From a virus (Duplodnaviria; Caudoviricetes), in IMG/VR virus record IMGVR_UViG_3300024272_002379: 64,000 nucleotides of DNA. One strand, 5' to 3'. Every line of letters begins with the position of its first letter. Positions within the stretch are counted from its first letter, which is position 1. Under the pieces are notes generated by a model. It had not been told where the DNA came from and ran no database searches. It saw only the letters and a program-made list of their open reading frames with translations. This document shows positions 1,320 through 19,877 of the stretch, piece by piece. The translations under genes and the position numbers were made by a program.

Positions 1320-4300
1320 CTATGTTAATTCTGCAAATTTATTTGCTAACCAGTTATCGGTTACTCCACTCATATCTGATTGACTGTATACTGATGACTG
1401 TCCGCCACCAGCCATTCCGATAAGTTTAGCATTGTTTCTGTCATCAATGTAGTTTTTTGTTTTTGCTGATACTTTAAATTGTAGTCCACTTTGTTTATCA
1501 TGATATACAACTCTTTGTTTAGAAGCTGGAGCTTGTGCAACAGGAGCTGTCATATCAGGTTCTCCATTGCCACCAGGTCTTCTAGCTGGAGTTAGTGGAG
1601 ATTGGTTTTTCTGATTGTGAAGTATGTTATTTGCAATACCAATTGCTGCTAAAGATGCTACCGTAATTCCTACCGTTTTCATAGGTATTTTACTTACCGC
1701 TTCTTTTGCCGCATCAAAGAAAGAACCACGTAACGTATTCTGCTTCATATTGTTTTGCATTTTTTGATGCATCTTAGAAGCAAGGTTTGCATCGTTAATT
1801 ACTTTATTTGCATCTGCCAATATTTTTCTATGGTGTGCTATAACTTGTTTTGCTTCGGCAGAGCTTGCAGTATATATTCTACCGCTATTAGATGAGTTCT
1901 TTCTAAAATCATATGCTCTTAATGCTCTTTGTGTTCCCAATACAGCATCTGCATATAAGCCTGTCGCTTTTCCTTCGGCAATAATATCGCTAATGCTCTG
2001 CTGAATACGCTGAACATCTTTTGGACTTAGTGATTGGAATTGAATACCCATGTACTCACCAAAACCAACAACAGACGTACTGCTTACTCTATCCCATTCA
2101 AAAACACTAGCCATTTGTTTCGAATCTCTAAACAAACCGTATATTTTCGCTTGTGTTTCTGCTATCAATTTGGAATTGGATGCTTGTAATGCTTGTCGAA
2201 TCTCTCCAAGAGAAGAGCCTCTTGTATTTAATGTATCTCTTAAAGGTCTTACTAAATCTCCTTGAGATAATTCTTCTGCTGCTTGAACATATTTTTCTAT
2301 TTCAGCAAATGACTCTAATAACTTTGATTCTTCACCTATTATATCATATAGACCTTTATTTAAAAAGTCCAAAGATTCGTCATATAATTTTTTACTAAAG
2401 TCTCCAACATTAGTTCTTTTCTGTACAGCTCTAGCCCATTCTTCAGCTCCTCCGCTTGCAGATATAAGTCTTTCTTGAAGTAGCATATCAATAGAACTAT
2501 TAGCATATTTATCTCGATTCTTAGCTATATCAGCATTTAATTGTCTAATTAAAGCATCTACACTTACTCTGCCAGATGCATTAGTAGTATACTGATAAGT
2601 CTGAGCCATTTCATTAATGCTGTCTAATATTTGCTGTCCATTACCTTTAAAAAGACCATTAATGTATTCATAACTAGTTACATTAAATGCCATTTTATCT
2701 ATTTGTGCAAATCTAGGGTCAAAACTTTTAGCTATAGAACCGTCTGCTCCTAGTAATAACGAATTCAATGTTCTGGCTATTTTACGTTCAGCTATATTAC
2801 TATCAGCGATTGCTCGTATTTGACTATTATTTTTATATTCATAAATATTAACGCCAGCACCAGATTCTTTATTAAGTCCAAAAAAGTCTAAAGCTTTGCT
2901 GTTAATTGAGGCTATATTTTTTCCTTCGATTGAAAAAGTTTCACCTGTTTCTTCCAATGTGCTTAAGCTCACTTCTTTGAACATAGCTCTTTTAGACTTT
3001 CCAGAACCCTCAAAACCTGCATACATATATCCTCGGTCATGAGCATCGCCTAAGTCACCTGGTCGAATATATAAAGAATTTTTATCAAATAATATATGTG
3101 TATCACTTGATGCGTCCATAAAAGCTTCTCTAAATGCATTTTGGATTGTGCCATAGATACTACCTTTGTACTCTCCACGATGAGACAGGTCAAGTATCAT
3201 TCTCATGTAATCATCTAATGAGCCTGTATTAATACCTCTGTTAAAAATAACATTGGCACCTTCTAAGTTAGATATATCATACAAACCTCTGAACCATTTT
3301 TTATATATTATTGTCTCGGCGGTTTTTTTATCTACCTTTGAAATCTGTTTATCAAAATCGCTTCTAGTGGTAGACATGATTTCTTGTATAATACTCTTTA
3401 TCTCATCATCGCTGGCTTTAAATAAAACATGATTACTTGCTCGTATCATATTTTCAAGTCCCGCAGCTTTCATTGCTGCTGATGTATCTCTTAAGCTAAA
3501 CATTTGATTTAAGCCAAATGACCACTTAGAAGTTTCAGCAATGTTAAATGCATCAATTAAATGCTTTACGTCGATACCTTTCTGCTCTGTGATGCCAGTT
3601 AAACCTCTGGTTTCAGTTCGCATATTGGACATATCGTTTAATATTGATGTATACTCTTCACGTAATTCATCACTAAACTTAGGGTCATTTACAAATGACA
3701 GTATGGTTTCACGCAAATTAAAGTTTGGTGTGGAAATTGCACCGATATTACTTTTACGTAATGCAGGGGTTAAGGAAGCTTTTATTGAGTCAGCATCTGT
3801 AAGAGTATTGAATCCAGCTCTTTCCCATGCTCCTGTCATAAATTCCGAATGATTAGCTGCATCTAAAAAAGCATCATCTATATCTCTAACGTCTGTATAT
3901 GCATAACCTCTGTCGTCCATGTACGCTTTCACAGCATCCCAATATGCATCTTCTTTGAACGATTTAAGCATTCCAGCAAGAGCATTACCTGTGTCATTCA
4001 ACATATCTTTCTGGAAAGCTTTACCTTCTTCTATCATATTAGCGATAATTTCAGTACCGTAAGTAATACTCTTTTTGTAAGATTGTAACAAGTTATCGTA
4101 TCTATCTTGTCCTATCTTGCCCATGCTGTTACCATCGAGTACTAAATGTAAAAACGTGGTATCACCGTCAAAGTCAACATTTGTGTATACAGACATTGCA
4201 GGGTTTAAGAAACGAATTTGTCTATCCTGAATAGTCCTATCTAATAATACGTTTACGGCAGGCTGCCCTCCAAATACAGGATAACGTAAGTGTTCACCTA

Positions 4301-7300
4301 GTAAACCAACTGTTTCTACGTATTTTTTACCTATCTCTTCAAAGGTTCCAAAGATGCTAGTTAAGGACCCATTTGCAATGCCTCTATTTACATCTCTAAT
4401 GTCAAGCATTGAACTACCAGTTCCAGTATCACCATACAATTCTGTTATTTGTCTGTTTAAAGTTTTTGTGATACCAGCTCCGCCATTTTCAAGCAAATCA
4501 CTATCTGCAATATGGATTCCGTCTATGTCTAACGCATTGATTCTATCAACTACATCTTTTACTTCACTAGGCATAATGGAGAATCTATCCATACCTGGGA
4601 TTGAATATTTGCCTTTTGTACTTCCTTCAAAATCAGCAACAATATCCATACCTGCTTTTCCAAAGTCAAAACCAAGGTCTTTAAAACCTTGTTCTCCTAT
4701 TGCAACCGCATTATTGTAATATTGTTTTCCATCTATAGTTACAATAGAAGCATCACGTAATGTTCTATTTTGAATAGAAGATAGTGGGCTAAGAGTATCT
4801 GCATTTCTTACTTCGCTATCTGCAATTCGAGATAGTTTGGTTCTAATTTCAGCATCTAATTTTGAAAGCTTATTAATATTTTCAAGAGAATCTTCGCCAT
4901 TATGAATAGCTTGTCTTACACTATCTCTTTCTGCAATTAATTTTTGTACGTCATCGCTAAGCATAGAGTCTATAATCGCAGGAGTTTCATCTTGAGCAAG
5001 AAACTGACCAGAATTTGGTAATGCGTATCTACCAAACGCTTTATACATGTCAGAATCTTTTTTCATAATAGCAATTTCGCTATATAGTTGCTGAGCAAAA
5101 TTCTTGTAGTACTCAGACATTTTACCACGCATAGAAGGATTCTTCGCTGCTTCAATCATTTCATTAAAGAAACGAGTAATATTCCTATGCTGGTCCATCA
5201 AGAATTGGCTATCATCTAAGTGAGTTGTAACATTCTGTCTAGGAATTAAAGCACCTCTATATGTTTTTGTATCTTTACCTTTTCCTATTGTTATTTCTTC
5301 TCCAAAATCAAAGAAGATACTGTAACTTTTAGCATCAGTTAATTCAACATTTTGACGTTTAGCTAATGCTTCCAGCCAAGCCGCAGGTTTGCCATCAATA
5401 TCAAAAATGAAATCTTGAAGGTCTTTTACTCTTGCATTCTTTGGAACGTTTTTACCATTCATCAAATCTTGCATTGTAACAGTAACAATATTATATTCCT
5501 TAGGGTTGAAGCTTGCTGGATTTGCATAATAAGCAGAAGCTTCTACAATGCCACGAATGCTGTCTTGATTTGCCAATACACCTCTATTATATCGTCTTAT
5601 TTCACTTATATTGTTTTTCGATATGGCATCTGCTAATTCTTGTATTGCTCCTAAGTCATCACTTAAGAAACCAATACCCTTCCCAACGTCTTTTGACATT
5701 GCATATTCTTTGGTTGCGTCAACATATAAATCATCCCAAGAGCGACCACTTCCACCAACTATACGACCATTAACTCCGTCAATAATACCATCTGTTCCAC
5801 CTGATAAATATTCTTTATTTCTAATACGAATACTTTGCTCAAGTCGCTGGTCCATTCTAAACATGTTACTTAAGTGCTCATTCATATGAACTCTTTGTAA
5901 TGGACCATATATGATGTTATTCTCTCTATTGTATTGAAGTAATTTAGCAATTCTTGAATTAATAACATTACCATCTGTATGTGTTGTAATGTATTTTTCC
6001 AATGCTGTAATTGCTTCAACCATGTGAGCTGCGTTAGTGTTGTCAACAATAAATGTTTGACCGTTATCAGCAATATCTAAAGTCCAATCTTGGAAGTATT
6101 TATATAAACCATTTGACTTATCTTGAATGATGTTCCTTAAATTATCCAACTTACCGAATTTAGCATATTCGGCTTCGATTGTGTACCAAGTAGACCATGA
6201 GGCATAATTGTTATTATGCTTTGATGCAGCAATATTTCCAGCAACACTTGCATTATCGAATATATACTGGAACATTCCATGAGCATATTCCATGGCTTCT
6301 TTTTGTGTACTTATACCAGTATAGCTCATAAACGGTTTCATGCTAATTGTATGAGCAGTAGCTTTTTCTGAGCCAATCATTGTTTTAACGTCACTTATAG
6401 AAGCGTGTTCTGGTATTACATATGTACTTCCCTGTTCAAGTAATTCTTCTATATTCTCAAGGCTAAATTTTGCTTTAGGTCCTCTATAATAAATAGACTG
6501 TCCGCTTTCTGTTACAGCTATAACAGTATTACTGTCTAAATCTTTATATGCTAAATTTCCAAGTATTTTTCTTGTCTTTTGCTCGTCAATGTTGTTAATG
6601 TTAAAACTTACTTTTTTAGCATCAGGAGACTGGAAGAAATCTTGATTGCCTAATAGGGGGTCGAGAAACCATTTACCTTCGTAAACACTACTTAAATCCT
6701 CACGCATATACTGAAGAGTTGCTCTTGCTTTATCAACATCAAGACCCAATGCTTGAGCGATACTCTCTATATTCTTTTCAGCATCACGATATTTTAACTG
6801 TAAATCAATATCACTTATTTGTTTAAAGCGAGTTGTGATAGCTCTTTGCTGTGTATCAAAAGGTAATCCATCTGGAGTAAGTGTTGTTTTCCCAAGCTGC
6901 TGTCTTATACTATATTCTGTTGGAGTTAATGATGTAGGTCTTGCCATTATATACCCGCTTTTCAGTGGGTCATCTACTATTTCACCTTCTAAAGCTTTAA
7001 CATCTATTTCCCCAAGACCAAAATACATAGGTCTATTTTGCTGTGTATAAGTAGGTCTCATAGTACTAAATAATCCAGCAAGATTATTAAAAGCACCAGG
7101 TTTAATAAACGAAATCAACCCATGATTTATAGCAGATTCAGGTAGTAACTGATTAATATAAGGAATTGCTCCTTCAAAAGAAGATAATGCTTCAGCAACA
7201 GATTTTGTATAACGTTTATTATCAGAATCCATAGCTACTGCGTCTTGCATTAGTCGGAAAATACTTTTATCAAAAGACTCTGGTGTATACCCAATATCAT

Positions 7301-10300
7301 CAGGTATATAGGAACTTATTTGCATAGCAGAATCTCTCATTACACTACCATGGAATAGGTTCTTAACAAAAAATTCATTAAAAGCGTTTGATTCTGTAAT
7401 AGCTCTAAACTGTGTGACATTTTTAGCTTCTCTTAAGTCCGCACTTACTATATGCTGCTGCTCATTGAAAATATAGAGCATTTGTTGTATTGGATTGAAA
7501 CCTGATTCCGAATATGTTTCTGCTATTTCACCAATTAATGTCTTTAAACCAGTTACATTCATTTCATATGCATGTAAAAAGTCAGCAGGGTGGTAATTTG
7601 CAATACGTTCAACTCCATTGGCTGTCACATATCCTCTATAACTTGATGGAGATGATAGTTCCTTAAGTTTTGCATTTTGAGTTCTACGAATAGCTGATTG
7701 TGCTTTCTCGAATTCATCATTTAATACGAATTCAATTGCTTTTCCTCCAGCTATTCTATGAGCAACAAGTAAGTCTTCAGCACCCGATTTTATCATGGCA
7801 CTTACTTTTCCATTTTTTGAGTATACGTCAAAAATAGGATTTAAAAACTTTTCTATTCTTCCTTGATTGATAGACGTTAATGTAGCTGTATTTCCTGTAA
7901 TGCCATGTATAGCTTCTGGCATTGAATCACCTAAACTAGTTTTATTTATTCCATACAGTTCTTCTACGGCTCCATGTCCTTCTAATGCACTACTTAATGT
8001 ATGATAATCTACATCATCATTTAAGCCAGAAAGAATTTGTACCACACTATTGCTGTGTTTTTTATTGGTAAGTACTACAAAAGCGTTGGAACTATTTTCT
8101 GGCAGCAAAACGAATGACTGCAATCCTTTTTTAACGTTTTCAGGTGAGTTAATTGCGTAAGGAGCGTAATAAGATTTTCCGTTTTTCTTGTAATGAGATG
8201 AAAACATTTCCTCAACAATTGTTTTCTCATCAGTGCTAAGATTTAATTTACGAGCAATTTTGTTGGAAACGCCATCATGCATGGTTCCTGTATAAAATGA
8301 CATAGAAGTTACATCAGATAAAGATTGTGTAATTCTATCTTCAATAGCTTCTCTGACTGCCTTTTGTCCGAACAAAGAAGACGCCTGATAAAATTTTTCA
8401 CCAGACTGATAACGATAGCGTGACTGAGCACCTGTAAGTAAATTATCAACAATAGATTGCAAGTTCTTATTTGCAATTCTTATATCTGAACCATCAGCTA
8501 GAATTTGTCTATATTCATCTATTGCATTTGATGATGTATTAAATCTATCTGTAATACCAACTAACTGACTTGCTACATCTACAAGAAAACCATTGATGCC
8601 AGCATTTGGCTGGAATGATAAATCTATGCTATGTTTTAAAGATGTTACTTGTTCAGCAGTAATCAAACTTCTTGCTGCTAAGTTTTCTACGACAGAACCT
8701 GCTTCTTGAGCAGTCATGCCATTGAATATATTTCTAAGACCAGGTATGGCACTATCTACTGATTGTGCATTGATTCTTTTAAGCTCATTACCAACTTGAA
8801 CGTCAATACCAAATACGTCACTTAATCCATAATGGGCTTCTTTTGGGGTAAAAGCTATATACTGACTCGTTAAATAATCCATAGTACTATCGTAAGCTTT
8901 TTGTAATGCAATTGTCTTTGTAACATTATTTGCATTACCCATTGTACTATCAATTTGATTAACGATATAGCTAAGAATGTCTTTTTCCTGGCTTAATCTT
9001 TCAAACATACCAGCAAATGCTTGTTCTTGATAAGTACTTCTAAGTGGGCTGTTAGACACACCATGAAGACGAGAAACTAATGCTGGTCTCGCTTTTTTAT
9101 TTGCAAAATCTTCTAATCCATCTAATTCCTCTACAAAACTTAGATATCTTTTTAATCCTTCGAAACCATATTCATCGGTTCCTTTATTTGCACGAACTGA
9201 TAATGGGTCAAAAAATTTTGCGTATTCTCTTCTGCCTTTATCGAGATAGCCCATTACATGCTGTTCGTTAATTTGCTTTTGTGTAACTGCACTATCAGAA
9301 ATCCATGTGGTATTTTTTCTTAAAAACTCGATTGCTTTATCTGGAGTTTCAAACTCTTTATGAATTTCTATAGATTTATCGGCAGGGTTAATAAAGCTCA
9401 AAATAAACTTTTCTTGAGCTTCTCCAGTACTTCCATCTATTACACTTGCAAACCCTGTCTTTTCTGTATTCACTCTCCAATATTCATTACCCATAGAATA
9501 TGACTGAGGAATAGGGTCTCCTGCTATTACAGCCATATCAGATGTAGACTGGTCAATGTATCCTCTATTCATTAAGAATAATGAACCATTTAAATCTACA
9601 TTGTACGCTCCAATTGCATCTCCATTGCCAGTCATTTCTAGTAATGAATCAATAAAGGATTTATTACCATTGTAATGACGGGTGAATATAATATCTCCTT
9701 CGTTTACTGTATCTTCACTACCTATATGTAACTGACTTCTGTTCATGCGTAATGATTCCATGATACTTTCAACAGAAGCAGGTCTATCTGTATCAGATGG
9801 AATAATTCCATGCATTGCATCTGTAAAGCTCAATACAGATTGGCCTTTAGCGGTAGCCATTGTACGAACAGCATTTACAGCGTCAATTGTATTTTCATAT
9901 ATATGTCTAAAGTTAACACCTTGGTTAACCTCTAATCTTCTTGATGTCTGTTCTAATGCAGTAATATCAAATATATTATTTGCTCCTGCTAAAGCAGATG
10001 TATTAGAACCAACAGCATTGTTTATATATGCTGTTAATTGGGGAATGATAGCTTCAGGTCTCGCTCCGCTATTATAAAGTGTCTGTAATCTATCAGCACC
10101 AATTTTCATAATAGCTGGATTCATTGATGATTCGCCAAGTCTATTGACTGTCCAATAATGACCATCTCCAAGAACGGTATCATTTCTACTGAAAAATACG
10201 TCATGGAATGTTGGCAGGCTACCAATTTTACTAACTCTATCAAGAGTTACTTGTTCTGCATTAGTTAAAGCATCCCATCCAGATTTTTCATACTTGCTTA

Positions 10301-10766: not shown

Positions 10767-10771
10767 TCCTC

Positions 10772-13700
10772 CTAAATTTGTAATCCAGCTATTTGTCGTG
10801 ATACGTCATCTCTGGCATCTCGTTTTATAAAGAACGATGTTTTATTGCCATTAGATGACTGCATAAAACTTGTTTGAACGTTTTCATATCCCGCCCTACC
10901 AAGTATCTGATTAAGTCTTACTTGTACCTGTCTAGGTCCATTAGTAGCATCAATCATTGGAATAGGGATATTTACTTCATCTGCTTGTTCTAAATCATCA
11001 TCCCAAATATCAAATTCACCTGGGTCTAAATTGTTTTGGTGAACAAGCTTAACTTTAACATCTTCGATGTTTGTACTTTCGTCCCAACCAATCCATGAAG
11101 CATCTGGTAAACCATGGGTTCTAAAATATTCATTTAGAGATGGTTTTTCATCTACTGGCATTCCCCATGCTGATTGTAAAGCTCTTCGTAAATAGCTTGG
11201 TGCAATACGTAAGATTTTTTCTTTTTCTTCCTCTGGAGCATCTACAAAGTGTTGGAAATATTGACGTTCTTTCTTAGGAAGAGCTGTCATGATATTTACA
11301 AGAGATTCTCCAGGGTCATATCCGTACATAGTTTGTTCTGCCGCTTGTTTAAATTCAATGGCTTTTAGTGCATTTTTTGGTAACTTTGTTACCTTACGTT
11401 GACTTTGTAATTCACCCAGCTCTTTATTAATGGCACTTATCGTTTGTTTTTTGCTCATTGATTTATCAACATATTTCGGCTCTCCATACTTAAAATTATA
11501 CCTATCTCTATGTTTGAAATCAAGTTTAACCTTGCGTTTGTAATCTGTAAGTTCTTGTTGTCTTAACTTATTAGATACGCCTTTTGCTTCTTTTGATTTC
11601 ATGAATGTTTCTACGTCAAAGTGGTCTTCTTTTTTAGCTTTCACTTTATATTGTTCATAGAGGCGTATATTTTTAACGTATTTTAAAATGTCTACGTATT
11701 CATTGAGTTTTTCTTGCTCTCTTCTACGTTTTGGTCTCCAGTCTCTATCCTCATTTGAGCCAGCAATAAAAGCTACTTTACCAATAGCTGGAACGGTAGC
11801 TCCAACAACAGTGCCTACTAATTTACCAAATCGCCCTTTTCCAAATAAGCTTCCAATAAAGCCACCCATAAGAATTCCGCCTAAACCGCCAAGAGAATTA
11901 TTTGCAATATTTTCTTCTATATGTGGAATAAGTATATCTCTAATAGGATGATTCCATGACTGGAAATCTTTTGAATAAACTTCACGTTTACGATACTGTT
12001 CATAAGGCGAACGTACTTGCAAAAACTTACTTCCAATAAATGGAATATTTCCAATAACATCATGAGTTAATGTTTCCATAGCTGAACCAAAAGCAATTTC
12101 CCCTTTTGTGTATCTAGCCTGAATTGCTGCTGGGGAATTATCATTCTCTTTTTCTTTAGCATGACCTTTGTTTAATAATACCTGATTTACGTTTACTCCT
12201 CTGGAATGAACTACAGCTCTTATTGAACGAGATGAATCTTTTGAGTATTTATTATGTTCATCAGCATCATAAGAGATTCTGATTCTTGCTCCTGGTCTAA
12301 TATATTTTCTAATGGCACTTCTTGCTGCATCATTTTTGGTACGTTCTTCGTCATACATTTCACTATTAGACATAGATACATTTATGCCAGCAAATTTAAT
12401 AGCATGTTGTTTGCCATATTCTTTCGTAACGATTGTATTGTTATCTATAATCTTAGTCACTGTTACCGTTTCGGTTTTAAGATTCGATGTTTTAAATTTA
12501 TAATCATAAACTCTTAAAGGCTCTTTTTGCTGTTTAATACGTTCTCTTATTTGTGAAGCTTCTTGTTGCTCTTCAGGTGATAAGTCTTCACGACTAAGTT
12601 GAGCAGAAACATCTTTAAATTCCTGTGAATAAGGAGCTACGTCTGCAAGTATTCTAAATCTATCAAGGGTGCTATATAATTCACCTCTTCCGATTTCGCC
12701 TCTTTCTATTGCTTTTCTTATAGTTTGACGAGCTTCGTAAACATTTTGTAATGTCTTCTTAAGTTCGCTTTCGCTGTAATCAAATCCAACGGTATAGGTA
12801 TTATTAGGATTCTCTTTATCAACGTAATAAATGTATCCCTTAGAATTCGTATTTCCAGTTGCCCACAAATAGAAATTAGTTTGTCTCATATGATGAGTTA
12901 ATGGCTTACCCGACTTACGAATTTCATTTAACTTTTTAGCAGATGTGGACTTAATATCTACAATAGCCACGCCAGTAGGAGAAGATAAATCATGAACCTT
13001 TGCATCGTACCATCCAATAATTCCATTACGTTTATCTTCTACTTTACCTTCTACGTCAATCGCTAAACCTGCATCTAACCATGATTGTTGTATCTGTTTA
13101 TGAATTTCGTTACCTTTTTCAAGAGTATCTTCTTCAAATGTGCTCATATATTTATCAGCTTTTAACATGTGCTTAATAATATAATCTTTTTCATATCCGA
13201 TAGAAGAAGAGCCTATATTAAACTCCATTAGACCCTTGATATTATGCAGTCTTTCATATCCCTCTCCAGGTAATCTTTCTTCGCCATTATCTATTTTTGA
13301 ATAAGGGTCTCCATGTTTAAAATCTGTAAAATAATCAGAGCCTGGCATCCATGACGGCATTGTGTTTCTAATAGGGTTTACATACTCTGTTTTATTATTT
13401 CGCTTAGGAATAAAACGACGAGTGATTTCGGATAACGTACCGCCAAAACCGCCTAGATTTTCTTCCCAGAAATCATTATTAAAACTATACGCATACCCAG
13501 AGTTCTCTATCATTCTTGCCTTTTCATTTGCTTCTCCTGTAACGAATGTCTGTAAAGCAAAGCCTTTTAAACCAGCTATATCGCCTAACCAGTTAAACTG
13601 TTCGCCTAATCCATATACAAATGCATTATCTATTAATCTATTGTCGTTACCTACTGGAATTCCAGGCCCAGTAATATTGGATATACTTACTCTTTGTTGA

Positions 13701-16700
13701 GTACCGATTACTTTATTAAGACTGTATCTTTGTAAATCCTGATTAACATTATATAAATTCATTGTATCTGGGACATCTACCACATTTAAAGCACCAGATG
13801 GAGTACTATAAACTTCATAAGGAGTGTTGTATCTATCGTAAGTTCTTACTGGTAAAATACTTCTTTGCTCGAAGTCAATACCTGCATTATCTCTAATGGT
13901 TCTTTTAGTAATCTGTTTCGCTTGATAAGCAGATGTATATAAGTTATTGCTGTCGGCAATAGCAGAAGCGGCTGCACTTTGTTCTGCTCGATTAAAGGTA
14001 TTAATGTCCCTTTCTGAGTTATCAAAAGAAGACCTGCCTTCAGTTAACAATGTACTTGGTAATTCATCCATGGGATTTATCTGGAATCCATTTTGCCAAT
14101 ATTCTAGGTGCATCTTTTGAGGTGGGCTAATAACACTTCCAATAGTAGAACCAAACAATGGTCCTATGATTGGTATATTTTGTCCCACTGGAGCAGTTTG
14201 CAAATATGGTCTATCGTAATAATGTTTTTTATCATAATAATTACGATTAAAAATAAAGTGATTTAATGGAGCCAATGGATTTACAGGATTAGGGAACCAT
14301 GTATTATTATAATACTCTTGACGAGAACCCCATTTAGAATCACTAAACTCTACGTCAGCTTGTACACGACGATATAAATTAGGTCTGAAATACATAATCT
14401 TTCCACCAGTGAAAGGTGTATTACCAGAACCCCAATAGCGTCCTTTACGAATTGGGTCGTAACCATTTTCAATGTATTCTTCACGTTCCTCTGCTGTTTG
14501 TCCTAATCCTAATTGATATACGCCAGGCAATTCGTTTATCTGGTCAGAACCTGGTGTCATTTCTCCTAAGAATTTAAATAACTTTGTAGCCCCTACTAAA
14601 TCCATTGCATGATGAGCCCCAATATCAATTGGTCTTACTACATTACGCATCATGAATTTTGTTATATTGTCTCGGTTACCTGTTTCATCTCCAGACCCAA
14701 AAAATGGTTCTGATAAGTAATTAATTACACCAGGAACTTGAGTAGCTAAAAAGATAGGCAATGCTCTTTTAGTTAGTAAATTCCATGCCATACTAGTAGA
14801 TGAGCGTTTACTATCTATACTTAAGCCTAGTAAGTATGAAGCACTTCCTAATCCTTCTGATAACTGATTTAATATAGACCAAGTAAATCCTGAACGTTCA
14901 GTGAAAAACTCATGCATTGTATTATCGGCATTACGGCCTACAAAGAATTGCTTTGCAAAACCTTCAAGCTCATGAAGGGCTTTATCGGTATCTCCTTGAC
15001 TAAAATAATTATAAGCCTGAGAAACTTTAAATCCTTCTTTTGTGGTGCTGTACATACGAGGCTGAAAATCTTTACCGTCTACTTTGAATTTTTCATGCCC
15101 TTCACCAAATACGCTCTTGTAATTAAACTGTCTTACCTGATTTAGCATTTCCTGAACGTCATCATATTCATAGCCATTTACACGAACTTTCTCTGTCATT
15201 TTATTGATAAGATTGTCCATGAATTCGTCAAAGTTTGTTGCTGTATCCAATGTTCTTTCGACATCTTCTCCCATAGGTCTGGACTCTTGATAACCCATAT
15301 CTAAGAACTTACTAGCTTCGTATTTAAACTTCTGGAATTTATTTAACTCAACACCTTCTTCTCTAAGAAGGGCTTCGTATTTATCTAATGCTATCTTTTG
15401 AGCTTCCCCCATACTTAAGCCACTCATCTGACGTGTAGCATTATGCATAGGTTTTAAACCGTATGATTCGTCTGCATAGGTAATGTCATGTAATTTAAAA
15501 CCACTACCTAACTCTTGAAGCTGGGCATTCCCATCAGTGGTATATGCCTTACCATTAATGATAGCTATATTTTTATATCTATAATCATCCCCAAAAGTTT
15601 CTGCCATCCATTCGCCTATCTTGTATTCTCGTCCACCCATTCTTGTAATATTGGCATCATACTGTTCTGAATTAATTAATCCCATTAAAGGTTTACGACG
15701 ACCTATTTTATCAAATCCAAATAATGTTTTGAATGGATTAAACTGAACTAATGGTAACTTGAAATCATTAGCAAGAGAATGAGCAAATTCTATCATATTA
15801 TTTTTTGACATACGATAATCTATAATGTGACCAGATTCATTGATTCTAATGCTGGAATCTACTATTATGTTTTGCCAATCTCCACTTGCAAAAGCATTGG
15901 TTGGTTTCCCATCTTTCATATATCTATGAGAGCTATATGAAAAGAAATCATTTACACTATCCAATAGTGATTCATATTTTTCATTTGTTCTTGAGTCTAT
16001 ATTGAAATCAATGCCTTCTTTTCTGACCAATTTTCTAACGCCGAATTCATCTCGTGTTAATTCAGCTACATCTCCAAGAGTAAGCTTGCGATAACCAGAT
16101 TCACTTAATTCTTGTGCTGCTTGTCTTGGATTTAAGGTCATTGCATTCATGAATTCCTCTATTGCTTTAGAGGTAAACTGAGTAGCTTGCGTAGGAGCAT
16201 TTTGTCTGGCATCAAGTTCTAGTCCACGCAATTCTTTCATACGATAATGAAGGTCTGTATTTAAATAATTAGTTCTTTGAGTTGCCAAATTACTTTGACT
16301 ATCTTGTATCATTTTGGAAAGAAGACCAATGTCTTGTTTAGTTCCTTCCATTAACTCTCTCATTCGATGAAAATTAGTTTGTCTAGTTCCAGATATATCT
16401 TTAAAGTCTTGCATTAAATCATAGAATACGCTGGATTCCCTATCTCGAAACAAACTCATTTTAGGCATTGTATAGTTTTGATTTTGACTAATAGGTTTAA
16501 GATTTGACCATTGTTTTATTGTACGCATTACCGTACCTGCTCTATCCGTACCTTCTCTGGCAATATTATCTGCAAGCTCAAGCAAAGGTCTCATGATATC
16601 TTTTAATGCTCCGCTTTTAAATAATCCATAACCAGTAGCACCAACAAGTCCAATCTTAATCATATTGTACAATGGGTCATTATCGCTTGTATCCTGATGG

Positions 16701-16756
16701 TCTATATGTGTTTGAGTGTTTAGAATTCTTCTTTCTAATCTGTTGTCTGATAACAT
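10772..16756 (-). CDS. Tape-measure-like protein with embedded PD-(D/E)XK nuclease and degenerate SNase (thermonuclease) domain
   Basis: Follows the tail chaperones. Gly-rich hydrophobic segments (IGLVGATGYGLF; GLGGILMGGFIGSLFG...LVGTVVGATV). GNEIH...GWYD...IVDIKS...QTNFY nuclease motifs. VTKIIDNNTI...IKFAGIN...VNQVLLNKGHA SNase-like motifs. Own SD GAGGTG. Confidence 0.75.
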   Translation of the reverse strand: MLSDNRLERRILNTQTHIDHQDTSDNDPLYNMIKIGLVGATGYGLFKSGALKDIMRPLLELADNIAREGTDRAGTVMRTIKQWSNLKPISQNQNYTMPKMSLFRDRESSVFYDLMQDFKDISGTRQTNFHRMRELMEGTKQDIGLLSKMIQDSQSNLATQRTNYLNTDLHYRMKELRGLELDARQNAPTQATQFTSKAIEEFMNAMTLNPRQAAQELSESGYRKLTLGDVAELTRDEFGVRKLVRKEGIDFNIDSRTNEKYESLLDSVNDFFSYSSHRYMKDGKPTNAFASGDWQNIIVDSSIRINESGHIIDYRMSKNNMIEFAHSLANDFKLPLVQFNPFKTLFGFDKIGRRKPLMGLINSEQYDANITRMGGREYKIGEWMAETFGDDYRYKNIAIINGKAYTTDGNAQLQELGSGFKLHDITYADESYGLKPMHNATRQMSGLSMGEAQKIALDKYEALLREEGVELNKFQKFKYEASKFLDMGYQESRPMGEDVERTLDTATNFDEFMDNLINKMTEKVRVNGYEYDDVQEMLNQVRQFNYKSVFGEGHEKFKVDGKDFQPRMYSTTKEGFKVSQAYNYFSQGDTDKALHELEGFAKQFFVGRNADNTMHEFFTERSGFTWSILNQLSEGLGSASYLLGLSIDSKRSSTSMAWNLLTKRALPIFLATQVPGVINYLSEPFFGSGDETGNRDNITKFMMRNVVRPIDIGAHHAMDLVGATKLFKFLGEMTPGSDQINELPGVYQLGLGQTAEEREEYIENGYDPIRKGRYWGSGNTPFTGGKIMYFRPNLYRRVQADVEFSDSKWGSRQEYYNNTWFPNPVNPLAPLNHFIFNRNYYDKKHYYDRPYLQTAPVGQNIPIIGPLFGSTIGSVISPPQKMHLEYWQNGFQINPMDELPSTLLTEGRSSFDNSERDINTFNRAEQSAAASAIADSNNLYTSAYQAKQITKRTIRDNAGIDFEQRSILPVRTYDRYNTPYEVYSTPSGALNVVDVPDTMNLYNVNQDLQRYSLNKVIGTQQRVSISNITGPGIPVGNDNRLIDNAFVYGLGEQFNWLGDIAGLKGFALQTFVTGEANEKARMIENSGYAYSFNNDFWEENLGGFGGTLSEITRRFIPKRNNKTEYVNPIRNTMPSWMPGSDYFTDFKHGDPYSKIDNGEERLPGEGYERLHNIKGLMEFNIGSSSIGYEKDYIIKHMLKADKYMSTFEEDTLEKGNEIHKQIQQSWLDAGLAIDVEGKVEDKRNGIIGWYDAKVHDLSSPTGVAIVDIKSTSAKKLNEIRKSGKPLTHHMRQTNFYLWATGNTNSKGYIYYVDKENPNNTYTVGFDYSESELKKTLQNVYEARQTIRKAIERGEIGRGELYSTLDRFRILADVAPYSQEFKDVSAQLSREDLSPEEQQEASQIRERIKQQKEPLRVYDYKFKTSNLKTETVTVTKIIDNNTIVTKEYGKQHAIKFAGINVSMSNSEMYDEERTKNDAARSAIRKYIRPGARIRISYDADEHNKYSKDSSRSIRAVVHSRGVNVNQVLLNKGHAKEKENDNSPAAIQARYTKGEIAFGSAMETLTHDVIGNIPFIGSKFLQVRSPYEQYRKREVYSKDFQSWNHPIRDILIPHIEENIANNSLGGLGGILMGGFIGSLFGKGRFGKLVGTVVGATVPAIGKVAFIAGSNEDRDWRPKRRREQEKLNEYVDILKYVKNIRLYEQYKVKAKKEDHFDVETFMKSKEAKGVSNKLRQQELTDYKRKVKLDFKHRDRYNFKYGEPKYVDKSMSKKQTISAINKELGELQSQRKVTKLPKNALKAIEFKQAAEQTMYGYDPGESLVNIMTALPKKERQYFQHFVDAPEEEKEKILRIAPSYLRRALQSAWGMPVDEKPSLNEYFRTHGLPDASWIGWDESTNIEDVKVKLVHQNNLDPGEFDIWDDDLEQADEVNIPIPMIDATNGPRQVQVRLNQILGRAGYENVQTSFMQSSNGNKTSFFIKRDARDDVSRQIAGLQI

Positions 16757-17438
16757 CTAATATCACCTCATCATTCCAGTGTGTTCCACCTATTAATGGG
16801 AAGTCTAATATCTCATGAGTAAATGTAGACTTTAATTCTTCTGAGAAATAATACATAGGGTCAATACCGTTATTCTGTAACTCCTTTATAAATTCTGGAT
16901 TATTAGAGTTCATTTTGCTCATTTCTTCCATGTATTCTTCTGTTTGGTCTTGAATATGCCAATCAAATCCTTTAAGCTCAGCAACTCTTTCCGCACGTAC
17001 TGTCATGTACATAAGTTTTTCCCATGTCCACTCTTCCATTTCCTCATATGTACATTCTGGAATAAATGCTTTAATTAAGTCCATACATTGAAGTTCAAGA
17101 GTTGTAGTTTCTTTCATCTGTCTGTATTCATTAAGTACGTGCTGTATATCTTTTAAACCAGATGTAGTTTGTATAACATCAGCAACGTACTCGTTCAAAC
17201 CTGCAAAACCGCAAGTATCAAAATCATATTCTTCTGGATAGATACAACATGTATTACATATAGCATCTTCCATGTCTAATTGAGAACTACATGATTTTAT
17301 GATGTATTTATACTCTTTTCTGGTTAATGTTCTAAATATAAAATCTGTATCTAAAAAACGGACATAAATAATCTTATGTCCGCTGTAAAGGTCTTTGTAG
17401 TAGTTTAGCAATGTAACATCTACTTTATTATCAGCCAT
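16680..17438 (-). CDS. Tail assembly chaperone paralog with C-terminal extension (GT-like)
   Basis: Directly upstream of the tape measure. N-terminal half aligns with 17450..18013 (FIFRTLTRKEYK vs FVFRTLNRFEYK; ICNTCCIYP vs ICHTCVLWP). Confidence 0.65.
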   Translation of the reverse strand: MADNKVDVTLLNYYKDLYSGHKIIYVRFLDTDFIFRTLTRKEYKYIIKSCSSQLDMEDAICNTCCIYPEEYDFDTCGFAGLNEYVADVIQTTSGLKDIQHVLNEYRQMKETTTLELQCMDLIKAFIPECTYEEMEEWTWEKLMYMTVRAERVAELKGFDWHIQDQTEEYMEEMSKMNSNNPEFIKELQNNGIDPMYYFSEELKSTFTHEILDFPLIGGTHWNDEVILDVIRQQIRKKNSKHSNTYRPSGYKR

Positions 17439-17449
17439 GACAAATCCTC

Positions 17450-18013
17450 CTAAAGTACCTCTATACCATATTCTTTTGTAAATCCTGAGTTCTCCATAAT
17501 GATTTGAGCAAGAGCACTAGGATAGCCGCTGTCTTCTGCTGCCATCTTTTTAAAATCATAGTTAAAAGGCCAAAGGACACATGTATGACAAATAATTTCT
17601 TCTCGATATAAAGCATCAATATTTTCAATTGCTACAATTTGTTTGTATTCGAATCTGTTAAGGGTTCTAAATACAAAATGCTTATCAAGTATCTGTGTGT
17701 GGAAAATCTTCTCTTTTGTGAATTGTTTTTTCCAAATATCAATCTGGGAAACACCAGGACCATTTTCAAAAATCGGAGTATCATTAGGGTCAATATAGTA
17801 CTCATCTTCATTTTCTGGTTCATATTGAATATTGATTGGATTATCGTAATCATATCCTTGTCTGGTAATTTCAGGAACGCCCTGATATGTATCTTCTGAT
17901 TCTAGTTCAGCACGCATATCAGCATATATATCTTCTTCGTTTCCTGCTTGTTTCTGCTGTGTTTCTAATTTAAGTTTCGCTGCATTCATTAAGTCTTGCA
18001 TATTTTGGTCCAT
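17450..18013 (-). CDS. Tail assembly chaperone (G-like)
   Basis: Lies between the tube genes and the tape measure. FRTLxRxEYK motif and acidic N-terminus. Confidence 0.65.
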   Translation of the reverse strand: MDQNMQDLMNAAKLKLETQQKQAGNEEDIYADMRAELESEDTYQGVPEITRQGYDYDNPINIQYEPENEDEYYIDPNDTPIFENGPGVSQIDIWKKQFTKEKIFHTQILDKHFVFRTLNRFEYKQIVAIENIDALYREEIICHTCVLWPFNYDFKKMAAEDSGYPSALAQIIMENSGFTKEYGIEVL

Positions 18014-18029: not shown

Positions 18030-18395
18030 TTATAGTAAACTCTGTGTGCTTTCGCTTATCAAATCATTCATTTTTTGTCTAAGCGATTCGATTTCTTGTC
18101 TTTTATCATTAATGTCTTCTTCGGATGCGTCTTTCTTTTTAAGTAAAGCAAGTTCTTTCTCTCTCTTTGTTTTTTCTTCCTCTACATGTTCCATCTTAGC
18201 CATTGTGAGATAGAATCCAACATAGATACTTGCAAATCCAAAAATAGAGAGAATGAGCTGTGGTAATGCATCATAGTTTGCTGATAAATGCATTTCTAGC
18301 ATTGTATAAACTACGACTACAAGTACAAGTATAATAGCAAATACACCAAGTAATTTAGACATTGCCATAAATCTAAACTTTGGAAGTTTTTTCAT
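18030..18395 (-). CDS. Small two-TM membrane protein with C-terminal coiled coil (holin-like)
   Basis: Two hydrophobic helices (LLGVFAIILVLVVVVYTML; LILSIFGFASIYVGFYL) followed by a charged helical tail. Confidence 0.55.
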   Translation of the reverse strand: MKKLPKFRFMAMSKLLGVFAIILVLVVVVYTMLEMHLSANYDALPQLILSIFGFASIYVGFYLTMAKMEHVEEEKTKREKELALLKKKDASEEDINDKRQEIESLRQKMNDLISESTQSLL

Positions 18396-19091: not shown

Positions 19092-19103
19092 TGTTACACC
19101 TCC

Positions 19104-19865: not shown

Positions 19866-19877
19866 TTCATCACCCCT

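What the first reader, a model, noticed from the sequence alone, without database searches (positions are those of the whole stretch)
1320..16756. Tail-loaded enzyme cassette: exonuclease-RNA polymerase giant plus nuclease-bearing tape measure
Seen: two giant genes fill the slot between the tail chaperones and the baseplate gene. Both have membrane-like segments, and together they carry four enzyme-like domains (two-barrel RNAP, DEDDh exonuclease, PD-(D/E)XK nuclease, SNase-like). Known: tape-measure proteins are ejected into the host, crAss-like phages inject a virion RNAP, and Thermus phage P23-45 has an RNAP fused to its tape measure. Inference: this phage injects a membrane-anchored machine that transcribes early genes and processes or degrades nucleic acid at entry. 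I do not know of this four-domain, two-protein combination being described.
Basis: partly seen in the sequence, partly recalled or inferred. Interest (0 to 1): 0.92.

Follow-up and report, generated by a model that had tools for sequence, protein, structure and literature searches.

The report
Tail-slot giants carrying RNA polymerase and nucleases
An uncultivated ~210-kb gut phage with a contractile tail encodes, in its tape-measure slot, a 3148-residue protein holding a previously unannotated RNA polymerase plus an exonuclease, and next to it a 1994-residue nuclease-bearing protein; both look built to be shot into the host cell, which extends a trick known from only a few other phages.

Summary
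Two minus-strand ORFs (10772-16756, 1994 aa; 1320-10766, 3148 aa) lie between a duplicated tail-chaperone pair and the hub/lysozyme gene of a jumbo myophage of the Bacillus phage 0305phi8-36 lineage, found in animal gut metagenomes.

- **RNA polymerase.** The fold of residues 1350-2500 of the 3148-aa protein (pLDDT 88) matches only two-barrel RNA polymerases (Z up to 9.1). DFDGD, R-x-P and two lysines are invariant in 59 diverse homologues.
- **DEDDh exonuclease.** The N-terminus has all the DEDDh motifs, invariant. Profile matches are weak and no fold was made.
- **Nucleases.** The 1994-aa protein has a RecB/Cas4/lambda-exo-like nuclease (Z 13.7) and an SNase fold (Z 11.1) whose catalytic residues look degenerate.

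The 1994-aa protein is the orthologue of 0305phi8-36 gp145. The 3148-aa protein shares position and C-terminal module with gp146, the published tape-measure candidate. Both were found in virions by mass spectrometry. So the RNA polymerase giant, not the nuclease one, is the literature's tape-measure candidate.

Both giants contain no cysteine at all (p about 2e-23), like lambda gpH, T7 gp15/16, N4 gp50 and P23-45 gp96. Close relatives also encode a separate YonO-like polymerase. Homologues in cultured Bacillus phages are annotated only as structural proteins.

Verdict: a new variant of a known kind.

The parts
1320..10766 (-). Gene for the 3148-aa giant (P0001; likely start at codon 3, nt 10760). 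Order of parts: DEDDh exonuclease, ~900 aa unknown, two-barrel RNAP, ~500 aa unknown, TM segment, conserved C-terminal module. No cysteine.
9687..10514 (-). DEDDh (DnaQ-like) 3'-5' exonuclease domain, aa ~85-360. ExoI is D95/E97, ExoII is N263/D267, ExoIII is H347/D352. An unusually long insert lies between ExoI and ExoII.
   Evidence: Motif residues invariant or nearly so in 39 sequences. PDB profile hits are all 3'-5' exonucleases, mostly DnaQ/DEDDh-type, E 0.006-0.8.
3267..6719 (-). Single-chain two-barrel (DPBB) RNA polymerase module, aa 1350-2500. The beta-like barrel comes first, then the beta-prime-like barrel, which is split by a large insert, then a helical bridge-helix-like region.
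   Evidence: AF2 pLDDT 88.2; fold searches; hhalign to the P23-45 gp96 catalytic barrel, E 3e-4
6363..6386 (-). K1461 ... E1467-K1468: invariant basic pair on strands of the first (beta-like) barrel
   Evidence: 59/59 sequences; strands E111-115 and E118-123 of the model
4161..4175 (-). DFDGD (aa 2198-2202), the metal-binding catalytic motif. R2161-x-P2163 lies upstream of it.
   Evidence: 59/59 invariant; aligned to 779-DFDGD-783 of P23-45 gp96
1617..1688 (-). Single hydrophobic, TM-like segment, aa 3027-3050
1323..1616 (-). Conserved C-terminal module (aa 3051-3148, ending ...DNWLANKFAE). It is homologous to the C-terminus of 0305phi8-36 gp146 and KLEB27-3 gp034. Inferred to dock on the hub.
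   Evidence: hhalign E 0.0018, collinear; HMM E 2e-6
10772..16756 (-). Gene for the 1994-aa giant (P0002), the orthologue of 0305phi8-36 gp145. It overlaps the end of the chaperone gene by 77 nt, as in 0305phi8-36. No cysteine.
   Evidence: (30% identity over 98%)
12695..13219 (-). PD-(D/E)XK nuclease of the RecB/Cas4/lambda-exo type, aa 1180-1354. Motif residues are H1219, D1251, D1267-x-K1269 and Q1292-xxx-Y1296. No Fe-S cysteines.
   Evidence: (Z 13.7 Cas4 SSO0001, 13.2 LHK-Exo, 12.2 lambda exonuclease)
12107..12484 (-). SNase (thermonuclease) OB-fold domain, aa ~1425-1550. Catalytic residues appear degenerate (IDNNT in place of IDGDT).
   Evidence: E 6e-7; Z 11.1. The residue reading is by eye, against a remembered SNase sequence.
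11756..11896 (-). Glycine-zipper-like hydrophobic pair, aa 1621-1667
   Evidence: (weak Rick_17kDa_Anti)
16680..18013 (-). Tail-chaperone pair made by duplication. The C-terminal half of the first gene is homologous to the N-terminal part of the second, as in 0305phi8-36 gp143/gp144.
   Evidence: reciprocal phrog_29362/29368 hits; PMC2147016
3..1304 (-). N-terminal 434 aa of the hub/lysozyme giant (0305phi8-36 gp147 homologue). It runs off the window.
   Evidence: (phrog_20474, E 2e-101)

Best explanation
The window is the structural arm of an uncultivated ~210-kb contractile-tailed jumbo phage of the 0305phi8-36 lineage. It comes from animal gut and its host is probably Gram-positive. The two giants are virion proteins assembled with the tail and expelled into the host at infection.

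The 3148-aa protein is the positional and C-terminal-module counterpart of gp146, the lineage's tape-measure candidate. Its body has been built around a single-chain two-barrel RNA polymerase with a DEDDh 3'-5' exonuclease at the N-terminus.

The 1994-aa protein is the gp145 orthologue. It carries an intact RecB/Cas4/lambda-exo-like nuclease and a probably non-catalytic SNase-fold module just upstream of a hydrophobic pair.

Inferred mechanism:
1. After sheath contraction the C-proximal hydrophobic segments enter the cytoplasmic membrane.
2. The cysteine-free, unfolded N-terminal enzyme parts thread into the cytoplasm and refold next to the incoming DNA end.
3. The polymerase starts host-independent transcription of the first-entering genes. 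In close relatives these include a separate YonO-like non-virion polymerase encoded near a genome end.
4. The exonuclease and the nuclease act on nucleic acid at entry, either processing the phage's terminally repeated ends or attacking host nucleic acid or defence molecules.

Shown here: gene structure, synteny, folds, catalytic-residue conservation, cysteine exclusion and the distribution among relatives. Inferred: virion location in this phage, ejection, enzymatic activity, and what each enzyme acts on.
For: **Context.**
- The C-terminal module of the 3148-aa protein aligns collinearly with the gp146 C-terminus.

**Polymerase.**
- The RNAP fold has high model confidence, and the top hits are exclusively RNAPs.
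- K1461, K1468, R2161, P2163 and D2198/D2200/G2201/D2202 are invariant in 59 sequences, down to ~20% identity.
- The catalytic barrel aligns to the proven gp96 active site.
- Pfam RNA_pol_Rpb1_2 gives sub-threshold hits (E 7e-5 to 5e-4) exactly inside the homologous giants of WH1, KLEB27-3 and two IMG/VR phages.

**Nucleases.** Folds and motifs.

**Cysteine exclusion.**
- 0 Cys in 5142 residues, against 1.01% in the other 40 ORFs of the window (p ~2e-23).
- This is conserved across both families.
- It is shared with lambda gpH, T7 gp15/gp16, N4 gp50 and P23-45 gp96, but not with sheath, hub, fibres or the non-virion YonO-like RNAPs, which have 10-14 Cys.

**Relatives and polarity.**
- G001-G004, four complete genomes that also carry the RNAP giant, encode a separate PF05183 RNAP (in three of them within ~15 kb of a record end); so does 0305phi8-36, which lacks the giant's RNAP.
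- Polarity is the same as in gp96: enzymes lie N-terminal to the membrane segments.
Against: - There is no direct evidence for this phage: no proteomics, and no RNA run holding it.
- The body of the 3148-aa protein has no detectable similarity to gp146 outside the C-terminus.
- 0305phi8-36 gp146 and the L009 giant have an exonuclease motif but no DxDGD. So the lineage does not need a tail-borne RNAP.
- In crAss-like phages a giant RNAP gene also sits among tail genes, yet the protein is capsid cargo. Gene position therefore does not prove a tail-lumen location.
- An 1100-aa globular polymerase cannot sit folded in a tail tube.
- The DEDDh fold was not modelled.
- The SNase active site looks degenerate.
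- The cysteine control set is small.
- The RNAP fold matches are moderate (Z ~9; best Foldseek E 0.02), although uniform.
Confidence: 0.62

Rival explanations
1. The giants are virion proteins, but capsid-packaged cargo or ejection proteins (as in crAss-like phages, N4 gp50 and T7 gp14-16). They are not tail-lumen or tape-measure proteins. They leave through the tail after the portal opens, and a third, unrecognised protein measures the tail.
For: Folded enzyme domains of this size do not fit a tail tube. crAss and N4 precedents exist (PMC10770324 discussion). Cysteine exclusion is also seen in the head-stored N4 gp50 and T7 gp15/16.
Against: The genes sit directly after the G/GT-like chaperone pair and before the hub, which is the canonical tape-measure slot. 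No other long ORF lies between the tube gene and the hub gene. Both proteins have C-proximal hydrophobic segments, and the 3148-aa protein also has a conserved C-terminal module, as tape measures do. P23-45 shows that an RNAP can be part of a tape measure.
Confidence: 0.2
2. The two-barrel module is active but does not express early genes. It could make primers or other RNA on the incoming genome, act as an RNA-dependent polymerase like QDE-1, or serve mainly as a motor that pulls DNA in.
For: QDE-1 and RDR2 are among the best matches that span both barrels (Z 8.8 and 8.7). A fused 3'-5' exonuclease is typical of replicative enzymes, not transcriptases. 0305phi8-36 manages without a tail RNAP.
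Against: Every characterised virion RNAP (N4, crAss phi14:2, phiKZ/AR9, P23-45) transcribes early genes. Fold scores do not discriminate among RNAP families. Transcription-driven entry is judged too slow for ~200-kb genomes (PMC2147016).
Confidence: 0.1
3. The enzyme-like domains are inactive relics. Both proteins serve only as structural tape measure and tail-plug proteins.
For: The SNase-like domain appears to have lost its Ca2+ ligands. In this clade the RNAP is not detected by Pfam or PHROG models.
Against: The catalytic residues of the RNAP, DEDDh and PD-(D/E)XK domains are strictly invariant across families that have diverged to ~20% identity. Relics would not keep them.
Confidence: 0.05

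Closest known systems
Thermus phage P23-45 gp96, the tape-measure-fused virion RNA polymerase (Chaban et al. 2024, PMC10770324; PDB 8H2M/8H2N)
   Same: Both are giant cysteine-free proteins in the tape-measure slot, with a single-chain two-barrel RNAP (DFDGD) N-terminal to the membrane segments. In both cases the phage clade also has a second, non-virion two-barrel RNAP. The catalytic barrels align (hhalign E 3e-4).
   Different: - gp96 belongs to a siphovirus with an 800-nm non-contractile tail; this is a jumbo myovirus.
- The gp96 RNAP is at the extreme N-terminus, with no exonuclease, and gp96 carries a metallopeptidase.
- Structural similarity is only Z 5.4-5.5.
- Here a second, nuclease-bearing giant accompanies the RNAP protein.
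- No sequence link was found between this tail RNAP and the phage clade's own YonO-like enzyme.
Bacillus phage 0305phi8-36 gp145 and gp146 (Hardies et al. 2007, PMC2147016)
   Same: The gene order is the same: chaperone pair, giant 1, giant 2, hub. gp145 is a full-length orthologue of the 1994-aa protein, with the nuclease residues conserved. gp146 shares the TM segment and C-terminal module, and an exonuclease ExoI motif. Both are virion proteins by mass spectrometry.
   Different: gp146 has no DxDGD and no match to the RNAP profile. Its exonuclease motif is mid-protein. No enzyme domain was described for either protein.
crAss-like phage phi14:2 gp66 virion RNAP (PDB 6VR4) and N4 gp50
   Same: Both are giant virion-delivered polymerases embedded in multi-domain proteins. 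gp66 is a single-chain two-barrel enzyme (Z 6.4, 363 residues aligned). N4 gp50 is also cysteine-free.
   Different: Both come from podovirus-like virions and are stored in the capsid. gp50 is T7-like, not two-barrel. Neither has a fused DEDDh exonuclease or sits in a tape-measure slot. gp66 has 2 Cys.
Polyvalent proteins of phages and conjugative elements (Iyer et al. 2017, PMC5512222)
   Same: The concept matches: large multi-enzyme proteins delivered with the DNA for early life-cycle and conflict functions.
   Different: That survey lists N4-type RNAP modules only. It does not mention 0305phi8-36 or DEDDh domains, and in the passages read its RNAP modules are only N4-type.

Membership tests
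Two-barrel (DPBB) RNA polymerase superfamily | Beta-prime-like barrel carrying the DxDxD metal-binding triad | tested here: met
   DFDGD at 2198-2202 is invariant in 59/59 sequences, preceded by invariant R-x-P. It lies between strands of a DPBB in the model.
Two-barrel (DPBB) RNA polymerase superfamily | Second (beta-like) barrel supplying two conserved basic residues | tested here: met
   K1461 and K1468 are invariant in 59/59 sequences and lie on adjacent strands of the N-terminal barrel. The QDE-1 alignment spans both barrels. That these two lysines are the catalytic pair is inferred.
Two-barrel (DPBB) RNA polymerase superfamily | Overall fold similar to solved RNAPs | tested here: met
   The top 16 VIA rows are all RNAPs (Z 9.1-7.0). 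All 50 listed Foldseek rows are RNAP largest subunits, though the best E is only 0.02. All Atlas rows are RNAP clusters.
Two-barrel (DPBB) RNA polymerase superfamily | Template-dependent RNA synthesis | not testable with these tools
   Needs an in vitro assay
Tape-measure-fused virion RNAP (P23-45 gp96 type) | The RNAP is part of the tape measure polypeptide | tested here: inconclusive
   The gene lies in the tape-measure slot, and its C-terminal module is homologous to gp146, the assigned tape measure. That assignment rests on length alone, and the adjacent 1994-aa protein is an equal candidate.
Tape-measure-fused virion RNAP (P23-45 gp96 type) | Present in virions | not testable with these tools
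   Support is indirect only: mass spectrometry of gp145/gp146, 'structural protein' labels of WH1 gp095 and KLEB27-3 gp034, and cysteine exclusion.
Tape-measure-fused virion RNAP (P23-45 gp96 type) | Specific sequence or structure kinship with gp96 | tested here: inconclusive
   hhalign gives 38.7% probability and E 3e-4, limited to the catalytic barrel. Z is 5.4-5.5, lower than to cellular RNAPs.
DEDDh (DnaQ-like) 3'-5' exonuclease | ExoI (DxE), ExoII (NxxxD) and ExoIII (Hx4D) motifs in order | tested here: met
   D95, E97, N263, H347 and D352 are invariant, and D267 is at least 90% conserved, in 39 sequences
DEDDh (DnaQ-like) 3'-5' exonuclease | RNase H-like fold, or a significant profile match | tested here: inconclusive
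   All 8 PDB profile hits are 3'-5' exonucleases, mostly DnaQ/DEDDh-type, but E is 0.006-0.8. Pfam Rv2179c-like or RNase_T matches only 3 of 39 members. hhalign to E. coli epsilon covers ExoI only.
PD-(D/E)XK nuclease, RecB/Cas4/lambda-exonuclease group | D...(D/E)xK core plus QxxxY motif, and the fold | tested here: met
   D1251 and K1269 are invariant; D1267, Q1292 and Y1296 are at least 90% conserved. Pfam is above its cut-off. Z is 13.7 to Cas4, 13.2 to LHK-Exo and 12.2 to lambda exonuclease.
Cas4 proper | Four-cysteine Fe-S cluster | tested here: not met
   No cysteine in the whole protein
Staphylococcal nuclease (thermonuclease) family | OB-fold of SNase | tested here: met
   Foldseek E 6e-7, TM 0.67; Z 11.1; profile E 0.0085
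Staphylococcal nuclease (thermonuclease) family | Catalytic Ca2+ ligands and Arg/Glu (D21, D40, R35, E43, R87) | tested here: inconclusive
   By eye against a remembered SNase sequence: D21 becomes an invariant N, D40 becomes N, R35 becomes K, and E43 becomes M here (E in most relatives). No residue-level structural alignment was available.
Phage tape measure protein | Gene after the tail chaperones and before the hub; hydrophobic segment(s); length sets tail length | tested here: inconclusive
   Position and hydrophobic segments are met by both giants. The ruler function cannot be tested from sequence.

The most novel reading that the evidence does not exclude
A widespread, previously unannotated family of tail-delivered single-chain two-barrel RNA polymerases with a cis-fused DEDDh exonuclease exists in jumbo contractile-tailed phages of Gram-positive hosts, including cultured Bacillus phages WH1 and KLEB27-3. 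The polymerase is part of the tape-measure or tail-lumen protein. It is ejected unfolded, anchored at the membrane by its C-terminal segment, and makes the first transcripts independently of the host enzyme. The fused exonuclease acts on the nascent RNA 3' end or the entering DNA end, an arrangement not known for any RNA polymerase.
Probability: 0.4. Interest if true: 0.85.

Novelty: new variant of a known kind. Interest (0 to 1): 0.72.

Why it matters
**Generality.** Virion RNA polymerases are known from N4, crAss-like, phiKZ-like and P23-45 phages. A polymerase built into a tape-measure-slot protein has been shown only once, in a siphovirus. This finding suggests the same solution exists in a large clade of jumbo myophages: 84 clusters at 50% identity, in animal guts, and in cultured Bacillus phages.

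**Why it was missed.** No Pfam or PHROG model detects this RNAP family. It is annotated only as 'structural protein'.

**New biochemistry.** The polymerase is fused to a proofreading-type exonuclease and paired with an injected RecB-like nuclease. That raises testable questions about what happens to nucleic acids in the first seconds of infection.

**A possible screen.** Complete cysteine exclusion, shared with all the proven ejected proteins checked here except crAss gp66 (2 Cys), may be a simple sequence signature for proteins that must thread through the tail channel.

Tried and rejected
**Hypotheses rejected**
- First guess, a crAss-like phage (giant DFDGD protein, low G+C). Rejected because of a sheath, tube, G/GT-like chaperones and synteny with 0305phi8-36.
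- Paralogy between the tail RNAP and the clade's YonO-like RNAP. hhalign of A3 against the G001 and 0305phi8-36 enzymes gave nothing. A single sequence against a profile is a weak test.
- An RNAP hidden in 0305phi8-36 gp146. hhalign and HMM searches were negative and there is no DxDGD.

**Searches that found nothing**
- Megablast of the whole region, and tblastn of aa 1900-2500, against 50,697 phage records: no match.
- Pfam and PHROGs on the 3148-aa protein: nothing meaningful.
- phmmer and profile search of the whole protein against PDB sequences: nothing.
- Pattern-based search of IMG/VR with the RNAP alignment: no relatives. This was a false negative, because loci found through the 1994-aa protein do contain homologues.
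- PF05183 was not found in WH1, KLEB27-3, MTATph1, G006 or G007. This is no proof of absence.
- PF00929 gave one weak hit only.
- ESM Atlas feature searches of the exonuclease region and of aa 640-1180 of the 1994-aa protein: no usable hit.
- Profile of aa 1180-1600 against PDB sequences: nothing useful.
- No paper on WH1 or KLEB27-3 is in the library.

**Not available or not used**
- No whole genome is held for the window.
- No RNA holder is listed for this DNA.

Full report
**1. The observation.**

All ORFs of 100 aa or more that are not nested inside a longer ORF lie on the minus strand. They are 5 nt apart. P0001 has GGAGGA upstream and probably starts at its third codon. P0002 has GAGGTGA six nt before its ATG and overlaps the preceding gene by 77 nt.

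PHROG matches identify the neighbours:
- terminase, portal and capsid upstream;
- an 802-aa tail sheath (22596-25004);
- the tube and tube paralogues with PG_binding_1 domains;
- a pair of small proteins that match each other's families;
- downstream of the giants, the start of a huge hub/lysozyme protein.

So this is a contractile-tailed phage, not a crAss-like one as the DFDGD motif first suggested.

**2. What phage it is.**

- No genome is held for the window.
- The identical proteins occur on metagenomic contigs of up to 213 kb.
- The DNA is held by animal faeces and gut runs, one of them bovine.
- tblastn of P0002 finds Bacillus phage 0305phi8-36 ORF145 at 30% identity over 98% of the query. 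It also finds partial matches in the jumbo Bacillus phages WH1, Edson and KLEB27-3 and in Moorella phage MTATph1.
- The 0305phi8-36 record shows the same gene order: sheath, tube, tube paralogue, gp142, chaperonins gp143/gp144, gp145 (virion protein by mass spectrometry), gp146 ('hypothetical tape measure protein', virion protein by mass spectrometry), gp147 (hub with wall-degrading domains).
[quoted passage not shown] They noted that only its last ~60 residues are conserved in relatives, and that the chaperone pair arose by duplication rather than frameshift (PMC2147016). The same chaperone duplication is seen here.

**3. The 3148-aa protein.**

*Homologues and sequence searches.*
- Sixteen full-length homologues of 3126-3423 aa were found with word-based search.
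- An exhaustive profile search gave 84 clusters at 50% identity, 73 of them below E 1e-30. Nearly all are 3000-3650 aa long.
- Pfam, PHROGs and PDB sequence searches see nothing.

*Polymerase fold.* An alignment of 59 diverse sequences of aa 1350-2500 gave an AlphaFold model with mean pLDDT 88.2 and pTM 0.87.

| Search | Result |
|---|---|
| Foldseek, PDB | 50 listed rows, all RNA polymerase largest subunits (AR9 and phiKZ non-virion RNAPs, bacterial beta-prime, Pol I/III); best E only 0.02 |
| VIA-align, 48,161 chains | Pol II Rpb1 Z 9.1; M. tuberculosis beta-prime 9.1; Pol I 9.0; QDE-1 8.8 (280 residues, rmsd 4.2, spanning both barrels); maize RDR2 8.7; archaeal, AR9, phiKZ, vaccinia and ASFV enzymes; P74 gp62 7.0; crAss phi14:2 gp66 6.4; P23-45 gp96 5.4-5.5; then isolated DPBB domains |
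| ESM Atlas | Only RNAP clusters, including proteins with fused Rpb2_6 and Rpb1_2 domains |

*Polymerase residues.*
- Invariant in 59 of 59 sequences: K1461, E1467, K1468, H1517, R1641, R2161, P2163, D2198, D2200, G2201, D2202, G2342, S2345, E2394, Q2395, K2401.
- The segment LRYPVFG...FLNPAMSVYTNVDFDGDTTF has the form of the beta-prime catalytic barrel.
- hhalign places it on FRNPVMG...STGVDFDGDT of P23-45 gp96, the experimentally proven active site (E 3e-4).

I conclude that aa ~1350-2500 is a single-chain two-barrel RNA polymerase of a family not covered by current models.

*Exonuclease.*
- The N-terminus carries ExoI (VWDLETIG), ExoII (GANNIFD) and ExoIII (HIGSED).
- D95, E97, N263, H347 and D352 are invariant, and D267 nearly so, in 39 sequences that fall to 19% identity.
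- A profile of this region hits only 3'-5' exonucleases in the PDB, mostly DnaQ/DEDDh-type (exodeoxyribonuclease III entries, PolC exonuclease domain, RNase T, DnaQ, an entry named 'DEDDh'). The E-values are weak, 0.006-0.8.
- Pfam sees it in only a few members.
- The exonuclease call is therefore probable, not proven.

*C-terminal end.*
- A single hydrophobic segment lies at aa 3027-3050.
- It is followed by the best-conserved part of the protein.
- That module aligns collinearly with the C-terminus of 0305phi8-36 gp146 (hhalign E 0.0018) and of KLEB27-3 gp034 (HMM E 2e-6).
- The rest of gp146 shows no similarity and has no DxDGD, although it has an ExoI motif mid-protein.

**4. The 1994-aa protein.**

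- It has more than 200 homologue clusters, mostly 1960-2100 aa. It is highly conserved, and 0305phi8-36 gp145 joins the alignment at 34% identity.
- Pfam PD-(D/E)XK_1 scores just above its cut-off, and PHROG 1706 (Cas4-like) gives E 8e-11.
- The model of aa 1180-1600 (pLDDT 77) has two domains:
  - The first matches Cas4 SSO0001 (Z 13.7), LHK-Exo (13.2), MGME1, lambda exonuclease (12.2), RecE and Dna2.
  - The second matches staphylococcal nuclease (Foldseek E 6e-7; Z 11.1) and Tudor-SN.
- In the first domain D1251 and K1269 are invariant, and H1219, D1267, Q1292 and Y1296 are at least 90% conserved. There are no cysteines, so it is not a Cas4 with an Fe-S cluster.
- In the SNase-like domain the calcium ligands seem replaced (IDNNT for IDGDT; N for D40; M here for E43). 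This reading is by eye against a remembered sequence, so it is tentative. The domain may only bind nucleic acid.
- A glycine-zipper-like hydrophobic pair follows at aa 1621-1667.

**5. Distribution among relatives.**

| Phage or locus | Second giant |
|---|---|
| Six IMG/VR loci from contigs of 66-218 kb (L003-L008; four are complete 208-218-kb genomes) | Same pair, with the RNAP and exonuclease profiles matching |
| L010 (224-kb phage, more distant) | 2235 aa, with FDLETTG at 104 and NADFDGDQ at 1745 |
| L013 | Similar architecture |
| Bacillus phage vB_BceM_WH1 gp095 (cultured) | 2515 aa |
| Bacillus phage vB_BauM_KLEB27-3 gp034 (cultured) | 2434 aa |
| 0305phi8-36 and L009 | Exonuclease motif but no polymerase |

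- The WH1 and KLEB27-3 giants match the exonuclease profile (E 3e-8 and 8e-18) and the RNAP profile (E 2e-9 and 8e-11). They are annotated only as structural proteins.
- Pfam RNA_pol_Rpb1_2 gives sub-threshold hits (E 7e-5 to 5e-4) inside exactly these ORFs. This is an independent sequence link to the beta-prime catalytic domain.
- All five complete genomes tested in the inner clade, including 0305phi8-36 (gp99), encode a separate PF05183/YonO-like polymerase. In four of them it lies within ~15 kb of an end of the record.
- That family was not detected in WH1, KLEB27-3, MTATph1 or two outer IMG/VR genomes.
- So three states exist: tail RNAP plus YonO-like RNAP, YonO-like only, and tail RNAP only as far as detected.

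**6. An unexpected signature: no cysteine.**

| Protein(s) | Length | Cys |
|---|---|---|
| P0001 + P0002 | 5142 residues | 0 |
| Other 40 ORFs of the window | 15,735 residues | 159 (1.01%) |
| P0001 family | 76 members over 3000 aa | 0 in 72, 1 in the rest |
| P0002 family | about 110 members of 1900-2200 aa | 0 in all but three, which have 1 |
| 0305phi8-36 gp145, gp146 | 1930, 2537 aa | 0 |
| WH1 gp095, gp096; KLEB27-3 gp034 | 2515, 2025, 2434 aa | 0 |
| P23-45 gp96 | 5002 aa | 0 |
| lambda gpH | 853 aa | 0 |
| T7 gp15, gp16 | 747, 1318 aa | 0 |
| N4 gp50 | 3500 aa | 0 |
| crAss phi14:2 gp66 | 2180 aa | 2 |
| YonO-like non-virion RNAPs (G001, 0305phi8-36 gp99) | 1278, 1247 aa | 14, 10 |

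- The chance of zero in 5142 residues at the window's background rate is about 2e-23.
- Sheath, hub, fibre and terminase proteins of the same phages do contain cysteine.
- The control set is small. Even so, the pattern fits proteins that are stored outside the cell and threaded unfolded through the tail channel. It is the strongest in-sequence hint that both giants are ejected.

**7. How it most likely works (inference).**

- Both giants are assembled into the tail with the help of the chaperone pair.
- Their polarity matches P23-45 gp96: enzymes lie N-terminal, and membrane segments and the conserved end lie C-terminal. In tape measures the C-terminal end sits at the tail tip and leaves first.
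- On contraction the hydrophobic segments enter the membrane. The rest threads into the cytoplasm and refolds beside the entering DNA end.
- The polymerase then transcribes the first genes without the host enzyme. In the inner clade these may include the YonO-like polymerase, by analogy with the virion and non-virion RNAP relay of P23-45 (PMC10770324).
- The RecB-like nuclease, probably a 5'-3' exonuclease by its nearest folds, and the DEDDh 3'-5' exonuclease have several candidate roles:
  - resecting the direct terminal repeats for annealing;
  - trimming or proofreading RNA;
  - destroying host DNA or defence nucleotides.
- Nothing here discriminates among these roles.

**8. What is known and what is new.**

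- The two-giant arrangement, and the virion location of gp145 and gp146, were published in 2007.
- A tape-measure-fused RNAP was published in 2024 for a siphovirus.
- Comparative surveys list only the YonO-like enzyme for 0305phi8-36 (PMC7824862), or only N4-type RNAP modules in polyvalent proteins (PMC5512222).
- Full-text searches found no description of an RNAP, exonuclease or nuclease in these tail giants.
- I therefore rate this a new variant of a known kind. It is a sequence-orphan two-barrel RNAP family in the tape-measure slot of jumbo myophages, fused to a DEDDh exonuclease and partnered with a nuclease-bearing giant.

**9. Limits.**

- Virion location and activity are not shown for this phage.
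- The tape-measure identity is open between the two giants.
- The DEDDh fold is unmodelled.
- About 2500 residues of the two proteins remain without any assignment.

Noticed in passing
window 1320-16756 and homologues: Neither giant has any cysteine (0 in 5142 aa, against 1.01% in the other ORFs of the window). This is conserved across both families. It is shared with lambda gpH, T7 gp15/16, N4 gp50 and P23-45 gp96, but not with non-ejected virion proteins or the non-virion RNAPs. It may be a general signature of proteins threaded through the tail.
   Followed up: partly
homologues of window 10772-16756 (P0022, P0072, P0128, P0133, P0138): Some homologues of the 1994-aa protein are 2400-2880 aa long because inteins (LAGLIDADG_3 / Intein_splicing) are inserted. 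The two sites are invariant ones: about aa 780 (WGSGN|TPFTGGK) and about aa 1153-1174 (GDPYSKIDNGEERLPGEGYERL). This points to an unrecognised, functionally critical core in the unassigned N-terminal 1170 residues.
   Followed up: partly
window 16680-18013: The tail-chaperone pair is made by duplication, not frameshift. The C-terminal half of the first gene matches the N-terminal part of the second, as reported for 0305phi8-36 gp143/gp144.
   Followed up: partly
window 18477-21569: Three genes after the tube gene carry PG_binding_1 domains. One of them (19878-21569) is a tube paralogue. Peptidoglycan-binding modules on tube-like proteins suggest a Gram-positive host.
   Followed up: no
L024 (Moorella phage MTATph1) 15870-23226: In this cultured relative the second-giant slot holds a 1309-aa ORF, then a transposase gene and two small ORFs before the hub gene. 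The second giant may have been disrupted by an insertion.
   Followed up: no
L026 9235-22872 and L025 16421-23725: Cultured Bacillus phages vB_BceM_WH1 (gp095) and vB_BauM_KLEB27-3 (gp034) carry the exonuclease-RNAP giant, annotated only as a structural protein. WH1 gp096 matches the linker and SNase part of the 1994-aa protein, but not its PD-(D/E)XK domain.
   Followed up: partly
relatives G001-G005 (L016-L022): Each complete genome of the inner clade encodes a separate YonO/RdRP-like (PF05183) polymerase. In four of the five it lies within ~15 kb of a record end. G002 has matches at both ends of the record.
   Followed up: partly
window 18030-18395: A 121-aa ORF between the chaperones and the tube paralogues has weak matches to two-TM families (SLATT_fungal, DUF1003). 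Both are below the Pfam cut-offs.
   Followed up: no
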